In this document: positions 15,001 through 21,000 of the stretch, in pieces | How the letters are laid out: each line of letters starts with the position of its first letter | Numbering within the stretch: position 1 is the first letter of the stretch | From: Escherichia coli | GTDB taxonomy: Bacteria; Pseudomonadota; Gammaproteobacteria; Enterobacterales; Enterobacteriaceae | Direction: 5' to 3' (one strand) | Assembly: GCF_048403405.1 (NCBI RefSeq) | Contig: NZ_CP183129.1 | Length of the DNA stretch: 64,000 bases | Position numbers: made by a program

Positions 15001-18000
15001 CCCAGGCCGATAACCGCAGCAAGGAACCCCAGCGTTCCGCCAATTCCACTTTCAATAGCATTTACCATATCCAGTGGTCCCATACCCATCATCGTTCCCA
15101 CGAAGAAGCTGGCCAGCAACAGCGCCAGAAACGGGTGGAATTTGAACTTCACGATGGTCAGTACAATTAACACGATGCTGATAAGCAGCGTGCTCACAAC
15201 CCAGATTTGAGAGTGCATATCTCACCTTCCCCTGTGATTAACCTGATGATATTGGACAAAAAAACAACGCAGGCTGACAAACGATAAAATTTGCCTTTCA
15301 CATGAGCTAAATTGCATCAAGGGAGTGATTTACATCTAAAAATGAAGGTGAATTGAGATATGGTTCACTTTAGCTCACCTTACAGCTGAAATTTTGCCGC
15401 TATTTTTTTACACTTAAGAGAAAAATGAGGTGATTATGGAACCCCTTCGTGAAATAAGAAATCGACTGCTTAACGGCTGGCAACTATCAAAACTGCATAC
15501 TTTTGAAGTGGCTGCCAGGCATCAGTCCTTCGCCCTTGCGGCAGAGGAATTGTCGCTGAGCCCCAGTGCGGTAAGTCACCGTATCAATCAGCTGGAAGAA
15601 GAATTAGGTATTCAGTTGTTTGTTCGTTCCCATCGCAAAGTGGAATTAACGCACGAGGGGAAACGCGTTTATTGGGCGCTAAAATCGTCGCTGGATACCC
15701 TGAACCAGGAAATTCTTGATATCAAAAATCAGGAATTATCGGGAACGTTAACGCTGTATTCCCGGCCCTCTATCGCCCAATGCTGGTTGGTGCCCGCATT
15801 AGGTGACTTTACTCGCCGCTATCCGTCTATTTCGCTCACCGTGCTCACTGGTAATGACAATGTCAATTTGCAACGTGCCGGAATCGATTTGGCGATCTAC
15901 TTTGATGATGCGCCGTCAGCGCAATTGGCTCATCACTTTCTGATGGATGAAGAAATCTTGCCTGTATGTAGCCCGGAATACGCTCAAAGACATGCTTTAA
16001 CCAACCAGGTAATTAACCTGCGCCACTGTTCGTTGCTCCATGACAGACAGGCATGGAGCAACGACTCCGGTACGGATGAATGGCATAGTTGGGCGCAACA
16101 TTATGCGGTTAATTTGCCGACATCTTCTGGGATTGGCTTTGATCGTTCTGATTTAGCTGTTATCGCTGCGATGAATCATATTGGGGTAGCGATGGGAAGA
16201 AAACGCCTGGTACAAAAAAGGCTTGCCAGTGGTGAGCTCGTCGCGCCGTTTGGCGATATGACGGTGAAATGCCATCAGCATTATTACATCACCACATTAC
16301 CGGGCAGGCAGTGGCCAAAAATTGAGGCATTTATTACTTGGTTAAGAGAACAGGTAAGTCAATATGAATGTTATACCTTATAATACATTAAATCATCTGG
16401 TTCCTAAATAACCTTATTATGCACTGTAAGTGTATGTTGGCTTTATAAATTGCAATTTTTATATGGGAATTGTTTTGTCAATAGTTACGAAAAGGATAAA
16501 TAAAATAACCACATCTTCTTGGCGTCGAATATTGGAGAGCGATAATTTATAGTAAACTAGATTACCAGAGAAAAGATAAGTGGCAATATATTTGCTGGTG
16601 GCATTTTTATTAAATATTATATGTGTTGGTTTGTGACTTTAAAAAAATTAATTTTTAATAAAAAGGTGATTTATTTCTCATTTTGATTAATATTGAGGAT
16701 CCATTATGATTATCAGTTGTATGTCATAAAAATGAGGGGCTAAAAGCCTCAATGAATTGAGGCCTTTAGAACAGGGGTTATATCTTCTTTATATCTAACA
16801 CATCACCCTCCCATACTCGTTTAAATCTTGCTGCATTACTGGCTGTATATAATACCGTATGATGTATATTTCTGTGCCCTAAATAATCTTGTATTAGTCT
16901 GGTGTCTAACCCTTGATTAGCTAAAGCATACCCACAACCATGCCTAAGCATGTGAGGATGAATATTAATATTCATATTGTGACTATATTTCTTACACATC
17001 TTATACACATATTGTCTCGAGATTTTATTTCCTTGACAAGAAAGAAATAAAGAGTCTTCAAAAGGTTTTTTTACTATGTTATCACGTAGTGCTAGCCATT
17101 TTTTTAATAACAGAACAGTTTCTTTTTGCAGGGGATGTACTGTGGATAATCCATTTTTTAAACGCTTGATATATATTGCTGACTCTGAAAAGTCAATGTC
17201 GCTAATCTTTAGTGCAATAAGCTCGCTTACCCTAAGGCCATGTACATATGCCATTTGTAACATGGCTTTATCTCTAATTTCATTTTTTGAACCGTTGATG
17301 GCTTCAAAAAATAACAACCATTCACTATGAGTAATAAATTTGCGCATAATATTATCGGTTATACTAATTAAGTTAAAAAATAAACTATAAATACCAGAGC
17401 CTGGTATTATTGCTTGTTTTTTATAAGCAAGTAATGAGCTGGGGTTTAAATTATGCCACTAAATGGATATTCATCAATACCCCGCCAGAGAGATAGTTGC
17501 TCAGTGGGTATAGATTATTATTAGTCAACCAGTGAGCATAAATAAGCACAAGAAGTTGCGTATTATGAATAATGATTCAATGCCATGCTGGTGGTTTTTT
17601 GTGGTGAAAATATTTGTACCTTTTTGTTTACGGATGAAAAATAAACAGCCATATTATTTTGGTTAATTATTGTGTTAGTTTTAACACTCGGTGATGTTTT
17701 TTGTTATAGTGCATTAATTTTTAAATAAAAAAATTCATACATTCATGGATGTAATATATACAAGATACAATGTTAATTTTAGATAAAATATTAATTGCAT
17801 TGGATACTTTTTAAATATGCCGATGTTGAGCTTAATTTTATGAGGGAATGCTATTTCGGGCTGTAGGACTTTTTTATAATCATCTTATAGGGCTCTTTAT
17901 ATTTACAGGAGGGTTTTGAACGATAGTTACATAACGAAGGTTGTTTGTATGCGTTTACAAGCGATTAATTAGATTAGGTGAATTTTAATAAATTAATCTA

Positions 18001-21000
18001 TAATCATACAGCAACTATATGAATTATATTATTGACTAAATTTAATTCTTTCATCATAGTTGACATGGCTATTTTATATCAATAGAGGTGATTTATGCAA
18101 AACAGAAAATTTTTAACGCATCATGAAATTAATTTACTACTTCAATCTGTAAAACAAAAGAGTTGCTCTTCACGCGATGTTTGCATGATTTTATTGGCTT
18201 ATTTTCATGGTCTGCGTGTTAGTGAGCTCTTATCTCTGCAGTTGTCGGATTTAGAACTAACTACAGAAAAAATATATATTCAACGGATAAAAAATGGATT
18301 CAGTACAGTCCATCCACTTCAAAAGGAAGAGGTGATTGCAATAACAAACTGGCTGAATGAAAGGAATTCATTAAATGTTAAACATTTCAATGATAACCCG
18401 TGGTTATTTGTTTCCCGAACAGGAAAACCATTATCGAGACAACGATTTTATAACATAGTTTCTGCTGCGGGTAAAAATGCAGGTTTAAATATTAAAGTTC
18501 ATCCACATATGTTACGCCATGCATGTGGTTATTCACTAGCAGATAATGGTGTGGATACCCGTCTTATTCAGGACTATCTCGGGCATCGTAATATCAGGCA
18601 TACGGTAATTTATACTGCTTCTAATTCAATGAGATTTGAAAAAATGTGGGGGAGAGGTGACGCAAAAAAGCAACATTTTGACCCAAAATGTAAACCCAAT
18701 CTTTGTTTAGAAATTCTCGTATAGAAAAACATTTTTTTCTATAAAAAACATTAAATTTACTGATTTAGATCAATATGTGACGTCAATCTACACATAAAGA
18801 GGTAGGTTTGTCTTCTTTTTAATCTTTGGCGTATAAAGCCAAAATGTAAATAATAATCAAAATTATATTCTGAATTAAAATAAATACGCAGGTTTTTTAC
18901 CTGCGTTTTGTGCTATTTATAGTTAATTAAATTGATGTTGTCAAAATGGGTCATTTTGTAAACCTGTGCCTCAAGGTTTGTCTCCCCCCGGTGTGCAAAG
19001 CAAAAGGAAATTGGGAAAGGGGATAACAGGAAATTGATTGCATGGTTTTGATTACGACGACAAAAAATATTTTTTTAATTCAAGCAATTAAGAGTATGCG
19101 TTGGCGGGGTTTTTCGTACGTGAAAGTCATCGCTGTGGACGACTATTCTTCTCTGATTCGTGATTTTGGCACATCTTGCTTTCGGGATGAGCAATCGTTG
19201 TTGTTACCTGTATTCCCTGATAATGATTCTACTACCTGTATACGCTCACTGTATTTCATTCACCAATGGCTAAAAAGCCAGCCTGTCAATATTCCGTGCC
19301 TGGCATGGGGGGATAATGGTGTAGTTAGTAATAAAGGCATACCTTTCATACCGTGGAAATTAACAGCAGAGCAATTTTGTTTCTATATAGATAAATTTAT
19401 CAATGGCTGGAGGTGCAAAAAAAATATTCGCGCGAATCATAAAGTTTCTTTTTTAGAACGACAATTATCCCCGAGGGAGAAAAGTATCTTTATATATACC
19501 AAGGAAGGAAAAGATATTGCATGGATCTCGAACACCTTGGGTATATCCAGTAAGACTGTGTGGACGCATCGTCGTAGAGCTATGGATAAACTCGGGGTAA
19601 AACGTTTACATCAATTTATAAATATTCCGCGTTCCCTTATTAGTGAAAATATTCAATTTTAATGTACGTTCAAGAGTATTAGTGTTATGAATAAAATATA
19701 TAAAGTCATTTGGAACCATACAACCCAAAAATGGGATGTTGTTTCAGAATTGACGAGTTGTAGAAAAAAATGTAAATCAACTCGCTTAGGAATTGCTTTA
19801 TCAGCAATGGTTCTGGGGGGCGCTATTGCAATTAATTGCAATAGCGCAATGGCAGATGTCATATTGTCACCAGACTGGCGTCCGGGTACGAATAAATCGG
19901 GTGTTGGGGCTGCAACAGTAAGTGGTAAAACCGAATACATCACTGGTCCAAATGTCGTCCAGTCTGGTGGGTCAGGTCTTATCTGGATGACTGTAGAACA
20001 GGCAATTTTAAATGGCTACACCACTGGAGATAATTTATCCGGATTGATTTACGTCAATACCGGAGAAAAAACAAAAACCATTACAGTGAAGGATGAGGTT
20101 ACTGGCGCTTCTCAAACACTTCAAGTGTTTGATACTGACTCTTTCTCACAACGCGATGCGGGGACTGGGGGAAATGAAACCATTCCTGGTTTTAGTGGCA
20201 CTGCGGATTTTTTCAATGCGACACGTTTTGTAACAGCCAATAATGGCGGTACAGCTATTTTGGATGTGGGTTCACCAGCAATCGGTAATTTTTTTAAAAA
20301 TACACAGCTTGCTGTAGCTGATGGAGAAGGTTCCTCTGTTGTATGGAACTCGGTCAATGATTTTTATTTTCAGCCTGGTGCAACCATGCAGGGGGGCGGC
20401 GTTACTCAAAAAATCATTGACTCAATGAAATATGCTGGAACAATTACTGATTGGGCGGGAAAAGTACACCATATTAACTCTCTTGATGATTTAAAGCAAT
20501 ATAATCAATATTTGATAAAGTCACTAGAGGACAAAACGCTATCTTATAAGCAGTATGATGCTGAATTTAATAAGGCCCTTATTGTCACTAAGCATAATTA
20601 CAATGTAGATATGACCGCAGGGGGACGCATAGACTCAACTCCTTACAAAGAAAATGTAGGGCTGCTTGCTGTTCTCCATGCAACCAATAATGCACGAGCA
20701 ATATTAGGTAAAACGGGTAAATTAACTGGAGTTCTTCCTGCCTATGGGAATGGAGGAGGGATCGTTGCAACTAATGGTGGGACTGGTGTTAATGAAGGGG
20801 TCATTGATGCCATTGGTACTGAAATGATTGCCTATCAAGACAGTACCATTGTTAACGATGGTACACTTTTTGTTTGGGATAATAATGATAAATATGCTCT
20901 CCAGGCAGAGGGGATGGTTGCCGGTAGTAATGGTTCTTCAGCCATTAATAATGGTGTTATTAATATTCGCCCATTTAAAAATGCTTTCGCTCCAGAGGGG

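What the first reader, a model, noticed from the sequence alone, without database searches (positions are those of the whole stretch)
17348..18094. 747-bp AT-rich divergent control region between the two recombinase genes
An unusually long, very AT-rich intergenic region separates the divergently transcribed recombinases. It likely holds both promoters and nucleoid-protein sites that set switching frequency.
Basis: inference. Interest (0 to 1): 0.3.

Follow-up and report, generated by a model that had tools for sequence, protein, structure and literature searches.

The report
ipuB–ipuA recombinase control region
This 747-bp AT-rich gap is the shared upstream control region of the two known E. 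coli phase-variation recombinase genes ipuB and ipuA; published ChIP data show heavy H-NS/StpA coating of both flanking genes, so it is an ordinary, if poorly dissected, part of a known system.

Summary
Positions 17348-18094 are exactly the gap between the start codons of two divergent tyrosine-invertase genes. It is 747 bp and 28.2% GC, the most AT-rich stretch of that size in the window.

The genes are ipuB and ipuA of the published E. coli ipu locus (dsdC | ipuB | ipuA | ipuS switch | ipuR | upaE). The gap has no annotated feature, Rfam match, paralog or conserved ORF. I found no evidence that it inverts, but the genome test for that was insensitive.

Published ChIP-seq in CFT073 (gap 96.3% identical) puts ipuB and ipuA near the top of the genome for H-NS and StpA occupancy. 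No transcription start has been mapped.

Three syntenic loci outside E. coli (two are Salmonella diarizonae) keep the gap at 740-746 bp, although its sequence is only 43-45% identical to E. coli. The conserved islands are:
- an extended -10 promoter for ipuB;
- a perfect TATAAT upstream of ipuA;
- two further conserved blocks;
- an 18-bp palindrome that fits the ArgR ARG-box consensus.

No IHF consensus site was found, Lrp was not tested, and the effect on switching frequency is inference. This is a known locus of a known kind, so interest is low. The ARG-box lead is the only new item.

The parts
17348..18094 (.). 747-bp ipuB-ipuA intergenic control region, 28.2% GC
   Evidence: Present as a single, complete copy in 236 of 5426 complete E. 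coli genomes at 96-100% identity.
16778..17347 (-). ipuB, tyrosine-type DNA invertase (189 aa)
   Evidence: RefSeq product WP_001224626.1 in a 100%-identical genome. The protein is identical in six of the seven compared E. coli genomes and frameshifted in the low-quality SCU-124 assembly.
18095..18724 (+). ipuA, tyrosine-type DNA invertase (209 aa, full length, which is the published ipuS-OFF form)
   Evidence: PMC6083910 states that full-length IpuA corresponds to the OFF state.
17450..17477 (-). Predicted ipuB promoter: -35 TTGATG (17472-17477), 16-nt spacer, extended -10 TGGCATAAT (17450-17458). The inferred start near 17443 would give a leader of about 96 nt.
   Evidence: Consensus scan. 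TGnCATAAT is invariant with a variable n in four lineages. The motif occurs in 30 of 30 ipu loci. The start site is inferred, not mapped.
17564..17581 (.). Block B1: palindrome TATGAATAATGATTCAAT, matching the ARG-box consensus TNTGAATWWWWATTCANW with one mismatch
   Evidence: Unique in the window. A perfect match in L005, L008, L009-L011 and L013. Conserved block in the alignment. One core substitution in L003, L004, L006 and L012. A single box, with no partner box 2-3 bp away.
17615..17633 (.). Block B2: TGTACCTTTTTGTTTACGG, binding factor unknown
   Evidence: Conserved in all four lineages. Unique in the window. Present in 29 of 30 ipu loci.
17775..17794 (.). Block B3: AATTTTAGATAAAATATTAA, containing TAnAAT at 17784-17789; either a -10-like element or a protein site
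   Evidence: The strand and role are not resolved.
17990..18004 (+). Block B4: AAATTAATCTATAAT with a perfect -10 TATAAT at 17999-18004. Candidate proximal ipuA promoter with a weak -35; the inferred leader is about 84 nt.
   Evidence: AATCTATAAT occurs in 30 of 30 ipu loci. Not listed by the consensus scan, which requires a -35 match.
18085..18091 (+). Shine-Dalgarno sequence GAGGTGA for ipuA
   Evidence: GGTGA/GGATGA is conserved just before the ATG.
17390..17408 (.). 8-bp-stem palindrome AATACCAG-AGC-CTGGTATT inside the inferred ipuB leader; found only in E. coli
   Evidence: Absent from the Salmonella and Logan lineages. The leader fold is not exceptional (z = -1.53).
17501..17583 (.). Patch of clustered polymorphism among E. 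coli haplotypes; over half of the gap's 42 substituted columns fall in these 83 bp
18684..18958 (.). Context: the published ipuS invertible promoter element (about 260 bp, 7-bp inverted repeats CAAAATG/CATTTTG read from the sequence). Boundaries are approximate and were not re-derived.
   Evidence: PMC6083910; sequence. Same orientation in all 236 genomes.

Best explanation
The region is the shared 5' regulatory region of the divergently transcribed invertase genes ipuB and ipuA. Both belong to the known E. coli ipu phase-variation module: ipuB | ipuA | ipuS switch | ipuR | upaE, inserted at the 3' end of dsdC.

It is horizontally acquired, AT-rich DNA lying between two genes that are heavily occupied by H-NS and StpA. 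That occupancy most likely keeps both recombinase genes at a low basal level.

Short functional elements sit inside otherwise fast-evolving spacer:
- an extended -10 sigma-70 promoter firing leftward into ipuB (17450-17477);
- at least one rightward promoter for ipuA, with the best candidate -10 at 17999-18004;
- several conserved blocks (17564-17581, 17615-17633, 17775-17794) that are probably binding sites for specific regulators acting with or against H-NS. One of them fits the ArgR ARG box.

Recombinase dosage would then influence how often ipuS, and through cross-talk fimS, inverts.

Shown here or in the literature: gene identities, composition, distribution, per-gene H-NS/StpA occupancy, and the conserved blocks. 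Inferred: promoter positions, repression by H-NS, the identity of the bound factors, and the effect on switching frequency.
For: - Locus identity: RefSeq annotation of a 100%-identical genome and the ipuS papers.
- Composition and length.
- Accessory-island distribution: 236 of 5426 genomes carry it. Non-carriers match only up to about 16357, in the 3' end of dsdC.
- H-NS and StpA ChIP-seq occupancy: ipuB 0.91/0.93, ipuA 0.84/0.83, falling to 0.54 on ipuR, 0.12 on upaE and 0.13 on dsdC.
- Synteny outside E. coli: S. enterica subsp. diarizonae (L009-L011, L017) and one Logan contig (L013) keep gaps of 740, 743 and 746 bp.
- Sequence conservation: E. coli versus the others is 73-78% identical in the genes but 43-45% in the gap.
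- Conserved blocks: five blocks have at least 12 of 15 invariant columns. None of 5000 column shuffles gave as many.
- Motif persistence: the ipuB promoter motif and AATCTATAAT are in 30 of 30 ipu loci, and B2 in 29 of 30.
- Regulation: the native ipuA promoter was used functionally, and ipuA and ipuB expression changes in a pst mutant.
Against: - No transcription start site has been mapped, and I found no experimental dissection of this gap in the searchable literature.
- Promoter-like hexamers are not enriched over shuffles: 12 found against 16.9 expected. In 28% GC DNA, -10-like strings are cheap.
- The ChIP values are gene averages from CFT073, not base-resolution data for the gap or for this strain.
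- Within E. coli the gap is more diverse (2.5% mean pairwise) than ipuB (0.6%) or ipuA (0.28%), so most of it is weakly constrained.
- Block B1 carries a core substitution in 4 of the 30 ipu loci.
- No exact IHF consensus occurs in the gap.
Confidence: 0.75

Rival explanations
1. Mostly neutral spacer. Apart from two minimal promoters, the 747 bp has no specific regulatory content. It is AT-rich island DNA that H-NS coats non-specifically, and the recombinase genes are expressed at a fixed low level.
For: The gap is only 43-45% identical between E. coli and the other lineages, near what optimised alignment of unrelated AT-rich DNA would give. Within E. coli it is more diverse than the flanking genes. 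Promoter-like sites are not enriched. There is no IHF consensus.
Against: Five conserved blocks, against none of 5000 shuffles giving as many. Gap length is held at 740-747 bp in four lineages despite many compensating indels. B2 and B4 are invariant across 29-30 loci. Expression is reported to change in a pst mutant.
Confidence: 0.15
2. The gap hides a small gene. The candidate is a hydrophobic peptide of about 30-47 aa starting at the ATG/GTG inside B1 (17565) and reading through B2 (window version MNNDSMPCWWFFVVKIFVPFCLRMKNKQPYYFG). An unannotated small RNA is the alternative form of this idea.
For: An ORF opens at the same conserved position in the window, L009, L013 and L017. It stays in frame through B2 across a 9-nt (in-frame) indel. 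Leu-Leu and Pro codons change synonymously among the three non-E. coli lineages. The CFT073 haplotype has a perfect AAGGAGGTG 7 nt upstream of the GTG.
Against: The frame is broken between B1 and B2 in CFT073 and most sampled E. coli by a 7T versus 6T tract at 17595-17600. The three non-E. coli lineages have no Shine-Dalgarno sequence. My hand count on the codon listings shows no third-position excess (Sd9 vs Lg13 9/10/9; Lg13 vs Sd17 11/5/7 at codon positions 1/2/3). Opposite-strand ORFs score just as well. There is no Rfam match, and the only terminator-like hairpin in the gap is the E. coli-specific one at 17390-17408.
Confidence: 0.06
3. The gap is, or contains, a second invertible element acted on by the flanking invertases.
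For: A 25-nt inverted repeat, 80% complementary (17493-17517 / 17994-18018), and a 29-nt match (72%) between 17437-17465 and the ipuS-proximal end of ipuA at 18674-18702. In one draft E. coli assembly (L012) the gap plus the 5' halves of both genes is inverted, which produces an IpuA/IpuB chimera.
Against: The left arm of the 25-nt repeat lies in the polymorphic patch. Four of its positions vary with no compensating change in the right arm. The 29-nt match misses the 7-bp ipuS core (4 of 7). All 236 complete genomes are collinear over the gap and over dsdC-ipuR. Whole-genome sequencing of CFT073 overexpressing each Fim-type recombinase found no inversions beyond fimS, hyxS and ipuS (PMC6458436). 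The L012 crossover lies in homologous coding sequence, as expected for homologous recombination between inverted paralogs. Caveat: the genome test is weak, because ipuS itself is in one orientation in all 236 genomes.
Confidence: 0.03

Closest known systems
ipu locus of uropathogenic E. coli CFT073 (ipuB, ipuA, ipuS, ipuR, upaE; Bryan et al. 2006; Battaglioli et al. 2018, PMC6083910)
   Same: Same genes in the same order next to dsdC. The gap is 96.3% identical to CFT073's.
   Different: Nothing structural. The window carries a minority haplotype (10 of 236 genomes at 99% identity or more) with 6 rather than 7 T at 17595-17600 and a G in the centre of block B1.
fimB and fimE control regions of the E. 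coli type 1 fimbrial switch (long AT-rich upstream regions; H-NS represses the recombinase genes; NanR, NagC and IHF act at a distance on fimB)
   Same: An AT-rich control region upstream of Fim-family invertase genes, with H-NS on the genes. Recombinase dosage is expected to tune switching. H-NS modulation of fimB and fimE is cited from the reference list seen; the rest is from my own knowledge.
   Different: No sequence similarity at blastn sensitivity: no second place in any E. coli genome. ipuB and ipuA are divergent and share one region, whereas fimB and fimE are tandem. No IHF consensus was found, and NanR and NagC sites were not examined.
ArgR operators (ARG boxes) and the single ARG box of ColE1 cer that assists XerCD recombination
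   Same: B1 fits the 18-bp ARG-box palindrome with 0-2 mismatches in every lineage. G4, A6, T7, A12 and T13 are present; PMC6640053 names these as the most conserved positions. It is a single box, which from my own knowledge is also the arrangement at cer. The abstract of PMC2409434 confirms that PepA and ArgR bind regulatory DNA.
   Different: The canonical E. coli operator has two boxes 2-3 bp apart that overlap the promoter. Here there is one box, centred about 95 bp upstream of the inferred ipuB -35 and about 1.1 kb from ipuS. ArgR binding was not tested.

Membership tests
ipuB-ipuA intergenic region of the E. coli ipu phase-variation locus | Flanked by divergent ipuB and ipuA | tested here: met
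   ORFs. RefSeq names in a 100%-identical genome. IpuA 99% and IpuB 99% identical to database clusters.
ipuB-ipuA intergenic region of the E. coli ipu phase-variation locus | Followed by the ipuA-ipuR spacer (ipuS), a LuxR/GerE-type ipuR and the autotransporter upaE; preceded by dsdC | tested here: met
   317-bp spacer, 206-aa ORF and 2637-aa ORF; annotation; the same 317-bp spacer is described in PMC6083910.
H-NS/StpA-bound, horizontally acquired AT-rich DNA | GC content well below the host average and accessory distribution | tested here: met
   28.2% against 45.9% GC. Present in 236 of 5426 genomes, with the island border at about 16357.
H-NS/StpA-bound, horizontally acquired AT-rich DNA | Occupancy by H-NS in vivo | not testable with these tools
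   Published CFT073 ChIP-seq lists ipuB (0.91) and ipuA (0.84) as H-NS bound, with StpA 0.93 and 0.83. These are gene-level values from another strain; the gap itself is not tabulated.
H-NS/StpA-bound, horizontally acquired AT-rich DNA | De-repression of the flanking genes when hns (and stpA) are removed | not tested
   No expression data for ipuA or ipuB in hns mutants were found.
Fim-type invertible promoter element (fimS, hyxS, ipuS) | Conserved flanking inverted repeats resembling known half-sites | tested here: not met
   The best inverted repeat (17493-17517 / 17994-18018) degenerates in other haplotypes without compensation. The ipuS-like match lacks the 7-bp core.
Fim-type invertible promoter element (fimS, hyxS, ipuS) | Both orientations observed | tested here: inconclusive
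   One orientation in all 236 genomes, but ipuS is also in one orientation in all 236, so the test is insensitive. The published recombinase-overexpression sequencing screen found no extra inversion in CFT073.
ArgR operator | 18-bp palindrome TNTGAATWWWWATTCANW | tested here: met
   One mismatch in the window, none in L005, L008, L009-L011 and L013, two in CFT073 and L017. The consensus string is from memory; the key positions are confirmed in PMC6640053.
ArgR operator | Two ARG boxes separated by 2-3 bp | tested here: not met
   The 18-mers 3 bp to either side match about half or fewer of the 16 specified positions, by manual comparison on the alignment. The scan at up to 2 mismatches finds no adjacent box.
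ArgR operator | Overlap with the -35/-10 of the regulated promoter, and arginine-dependent ArgR binding | not testable with these tools
   The box is centred about 95 bp upstream of the inferred ipuB -35. No promoter overlapping it could be established, and binding needs EMSA or ChIP.
Small protein-coding gene | Reading frame, ribosome-binding site and codon-position substitution pattern conserved | tested here: not met
   The frame is kept in four lineages but broken in most E. coli. The Shine-Dalgarno sequence is not conserved, and there is no third-position excess.
Known RNA family (Rfam 15) | Covariance-model match | tested here: not met
   No match at E <= 1 in 16000-20000 on either strand.

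The most novel reading that the evidence does not exclude
The conserved single ARG box (17564-17581) is a real ArgR site. Arginine availability would then feed into expression of the Ipu invertases. Alternatively, by analogy with ArgR/PepA at cer, ArgR could shape the architecture of this H-NS-coated region. Either way, amino-acid status would be linked to phase variation of the UpaE adhesin and, through IpuA cross-talk, of type 1 fimbriae. The neighbouring invariant block B2 would be the site of a partner factor.
Probability: 0.2. Interest if true: 0.5.

Novelty: already known. Interest (0 to 1): 0.2.

Why it matters
IpuA and IpuB flip ipuS, and the published papers disagree on which of the two also flips fimS. 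[quoted passage not shown] How these two genes are controlled has not been dissected. This analysis gives a concrete, testable map: one well-supported ipuB promoter, a candidate ipuA -10, four conserved blocks (one ARG-box-like), and published H-NS/StpA occupancy. It changes no concept, because a silenced AT-rich control region upstream of fim-type recombinase genes is the expected arrangement.

Tried and rejected
- Rfam scan of 16000-20000 at E <= 1: nothing.
- Second invertible element: the inverted repeats found are not conserved and show no compensating changes. All genomes are collinear, and the published inversion screen was negative.
- Using complete genomes as an inversion test: shown to be insensitive, because ipuS has a single orientation in all 236 genomes.
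- Paralogy with fimB, fimE or fimX upstream regions: sensitive blastn finds no second place in any E. coli genome.
- Plasmid and phage collections: one mislabelled chromosome and one mis-delimited prophage record only.
- Small ORF from 17565: rejected as a conserved gene.
- IHF consensus WATCAANNNNTTR: none in the gap.
- Scan-predicted promoter at 18032-18060 (TTGACT-17-CATAGT): not conserved, and interrupted by a 12-nt indel in the other lineages.
- Distal promoter at 17681-17710 (TTAACA-18-TATAGT): the -35 is conserved but the -10 is not. Left open.
- Hairpin at 17390-17408: E. coli-specific, and the leader fold is unexceptional.
- Searching for more lineages: genome contigs gave no hits. 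Fifteen metagenome contigs were all E. coli-type at 98-99.9% identity.
- IpuA and IpuB homologs at 69% identity or less sit in different architectures.
- ARG-like box inside ipuS (18869-18886): not conserved, probably chance.
- Assigning B2 to CpxR, PhoB, OmpR or PhoP from remembered consensus sequences: the repeat spacing does not fit any of them, so no assignment was made.
- Bryan et al. 2006 (PMC1360361) could not be read.

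
Full report
**1. The observation**

The window holds a 189-aa ORF on the minus strand (16778-17347) and a 209-aa ORF on the plus strand (18095-18724). 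Positions 17348-18094 are exactly the 747 bp between their start codons.

The gap is 28.2% GC against 45.9% for the window. Fewer than 0.1% of 747-bp windows in the 64 kb are as AT-rich. Among 56 gaps between ORFs of at least 90 aa it is the third longest (median 60 bp) and the longest between divergent ORFs. No ORF inside it exceeds 44 aa.

**2. What the locus is**

The gap is 100% identical to several complete E. coli chromosomes. In strain MS 69-1, RefSeq annotates emrY, dsdA, dsdX, dsdC, then ipuB (-), then ipuA (+), then an HTH regulator, then 'phase-variable autotransporter adhesin UpaE'. Nothing is annotated in the gap.

This is the published ipu locus of uropathogenic E. coli:
- IpuA and IpuB are FimB/FimE-like tyrosine invertases.
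- The 260-bp invertible promoter ipuS lies in the 317-bp ipuA-ipuR spacer and overlaps the 3' end of ipuA.
- ipuS drives ipuR-upaE (PMC6083910; PMC6458436).

The window's ipuA is full length, which the paper defines as the OFF state.

The gap occurs once, complete, in 236 of 5426 complete E. coli genomes at 96-100% identity. It has no paralog at sensitive blastn settings. Genomes without it match the flank only up to about 16357, inside the 3' end of dsdC, which marks the island border.

**3. What is not there**

- Rfam gives no match in 16000-20000.
- The best inverted repeat in the gap (17493-17517 / 17994-18018, 80% complementary) has its left arm in a polymorphic patch. Four positions vary with no compensating change in the right arm.
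- A 29-nt resemblance between 17437-17465 and the ipuS end of ipuA misses the 7-bp core.
- All 236 genomes are collinear across the gap and across dsdC-ipuR. This test is weak, because ipuS itself is in one orientation in all 236.
- The stronger evidence against a second invertible element is the published whole-genome screen. It found only fimS, hyxS and ipuS inversions in CFT073 overexpressing each recombinase.
- There is no exact IHF consensus in the gap.
- Promoter-like hexamer pairs are not enriched over shuffles, 12 against 16.9, as expected for very AT-rich DNA.

**4. Evolutionary footprint within E. coli**

In eight haplotypes the gap is more diverse (2.5% mean pairwise) than ipuB (0.6%) or ipuA (0.28%). 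It is about as diverse as dsdC (2.6%). Over half of its 42 substituted columns fall in 17501-17583.

**5. Evolutionary footprint beyond E. coli**

Protein searches found only three other lineages with the same architecture:
- two in Salmonella enterica subsp. diarizonae (L009-L011 and L017);
- one Logan contig (L013).

In these, the IpuA and IpuB homologs are 79-82% identical to the E. coli proteins. Each has ipuB-like (-), a gap of 740, 743 or 746 bp, ipuA-like (+), a GerE regulator and a large autotransporter.

E. coli versus these lineages is 73-78% identical in the genes but only 43-45% in the gap. Net gap length is nevertheless held within 7 bp.

Five blocks have at least 12 of 15 invariant columns, and none of 5000 column shuffles gave as many. 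Four are B1-B4 below; the fifth sits at the ipuA ribosome-binding site and start codon:
- B1, 17562-17581;
- B2, 17615-17633 (TGTACCTTTTTGTTTACGG);
- B3, 17775-17794 (contains TAnAAT);
- B4, 17990-18004 (AAATTAATCTATAAT);
- the ipuA ribosome-binding site and start codon.

A sixth element is the scan's ipuB promoter. On the minus strand it reads TTGATG, 16 nt, TGnCATAAT (17450-17477). The TG and CATAAT are invariant while the n varies (G, C, T, T), which is the signature of an extended -10 promoter.

This promoter motif and AATCTATAAT are each present in all 30 ipu-type loci fetched. B2 is in 29 of 30, the exception being a low-quality assembly. The scan's other candidate promoter at 18032-18060 is not conserved.

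**6. Block B1**

TATGAATAATGATTCAAT (17564-17581) is a palindrome. It fits the ArgR ARG-box consensus TNTGAATWWWWATTCANW as follows:
- one mismatch in the window;
- none in two E. coli haplotypes, in L009-L011 and in L013;
- two mismatches in CFT073 and L017.

The consensus string is from my memory. The conserved positions G4, A6, T7, A12 and T13 are confirmed in PMC6640053.

The canonical operator is two boxes 2-3 bp apart that overlap a promoter. Here there is a single box, centred about 95 bp upstream of the inferred ipuB -35. Four of the 30 ipu loci carry one substitution in a core half-site. I therefore treat ArgR as a lead, not a finding.

**7. Small-ORF rival**

An ORF opens at the ATG/GTG inside B1. 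It stays in frame through B2 in the window and in all three non-E. coli lineages, across a 9-nt indel. Against it being a conserved gene:
- a 7T versus 6T tract at 17595-17600 breaks the frame in CFT073 and most sampled E. coli;
- a Shine-Dalgarno sequence is present only in the CFT073 haplotype;
- substitutions show no third-position excess;
- opposite-strand ORFs are equally 'conserved'.

I reject it as a conserved gene but list it as a rival.

**8. Nucleoid proteins and regulation**

CFT073 ChIP-seq (PMC9765446, Data set S1, sheet 1E) lists both genes among the 798 H-NS-bound genes. The scale sets 1 as the mean of the 20 highest genes, and the bound cut-off is 0.07.

| Gene | H-NS occupancy | StpA occupancy |
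|---|---|---|
| ipuB | 0.91 | 0.93 |
| ipuA | 0.84 | 0.83 |
| ipuR (c2896) | 0.54 | 0.50 |
| upaE (c2895) | 0.12 | 0.10 |
| dsdC | 0.13 | 0.12 |

H-NS/StpA occupancy therefore peaks on the two genes that flank the gap. Signal on ipuB persists in the hns stpA double mutant. In the summary-sheet header the authors mark genes still scored as bound in that strain '(HFP?)'.

Reviews report altered ipuA and ipuB expression in a pst mutant. The 'native ipuA promoter' has been used to drive functional ipuA.

**9. Conclusion**

Its interpretation is broadly right for promoters and H-NS, unsupported for IHF, and untested for Lrp and for the link to switching frequency.

The region is an ordinary, H-NS/StpA-flanked, AT-rich divergent control region of a known locus. 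It consists mostly of fast-evolving spacer of constrained length, with a handful of conserved elements. The conserved-element map and the ARG-box lead are the only new content. Novelty is 'already known' and interest is low.

Noticed in passing
L012:1-2815 (E. coli GCA_053222155.1); window 17008-18443 equivalent: One draft E. coli assembly carries an IpuA(1-116)/IpuB(C-terminal) chimera (P0006) next to dsdC. The gap and the 5' halves of both genes are inverted relative to dsdC. The crossover lies in homologous coding sequence (…LSRQ|YVYK…), as expected for homologous recombination between the divergent paralogs. The contig ends 136 nt into the reciprocal gene. None of the 236 complete genomes shows this arrangement.
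   Followed up: partly
window 18560-19100 (ipuS): The known invertible element ipuS is in the same (OFF, full-length ipuA) orientation in all 236 complete E. coli genomes that carry it. Finished assemblies therefore do not sample the ON state.
   Followed up: yes
window 17501-17583: Over half of the gap's substituted columns among E. coli haplotypes cluster in 83 bp. The CFT073-type allele creates a perfect AAGGAGGTG 7 nt upstream of a GTG at 17565, while the window allele has AAGAAGTTG plus ATG. The pattern looks like an imported divergent patch or local relaxation of constraint.
   Followed up: partly
window 17595-17600: A T-tract is 6 T in the window lineage and 7 T in CFT073 and most other E. 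coli. This shifts the frame of the small ORF between blocks B1 and B2.
   Followed up: partly
L033 (MG710528.1, 'Escherichia phage GER2') 1-8690; attL corresponds to window 17696-17707: A public phage record includes this chromosomal locus. It calls ipuA 'integrasse' and a truncated upaE 'long tail fiber proximal subunit', and places a 12-bp 'attL' inside the gap. This is most likely a mis-delimited prophage record. The truncated upaE suggests the prophage may sit inside upaE.
   Followed up: partly
window about 16357 (3' end of dsdC): E. coli genomes that lack the ipu island match the window only up to about 16357. The island junction therefore lies within the last roughly 25 nt of dsdC.
   Followed up: partly
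L014 (Citrobacter freundii), L015 and L016 (E. coli): IpuA homologs at 64-65% identity sit upstream of a CaiF/GrlA-like gene, a GerE regulator, a TibC-type glycosyltransferase and an AIDA-type autotransporter, with a spacer of about 330-370 bp after the recombinase gene. These may be further phase-variable autotransporter modules. L015 and L016 have a second recombinase separated from the first by an AraC-type gene.
   Followed up: no
window 18869-18886 (inside ipuS): A second ARG-box-like 18-mer (TCTGAATTAAAATAAATA, 2 mismatches) lies inside ipuS in E. coli. It is absent from the Salmonella and Logan lineages and is probably a chance match in AT-rich DNA.
   Followed up: yes
L009-L011 positions 1690-2904; L017 1419-1676: In Salmonella diarizonae the ipu-like module is not next to dsdC. 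It is flanked by IS605-family (OrfB/TnpB) or IS66-family remnants and hycA, consistent with independent acquisition of the module.
   Followed up: no
PMC9765446 Data set S1, ipuB row: ChIP signal on ipuB remains high in the hns single mutant (1.25) and in the hns stpA double mutant (0.61). In the summary-sheet header the authors mark genes still scored as bound in the double mutant '(HFP?)'. A third H-NS-family protein may occupy this locus.
   Followed up: no
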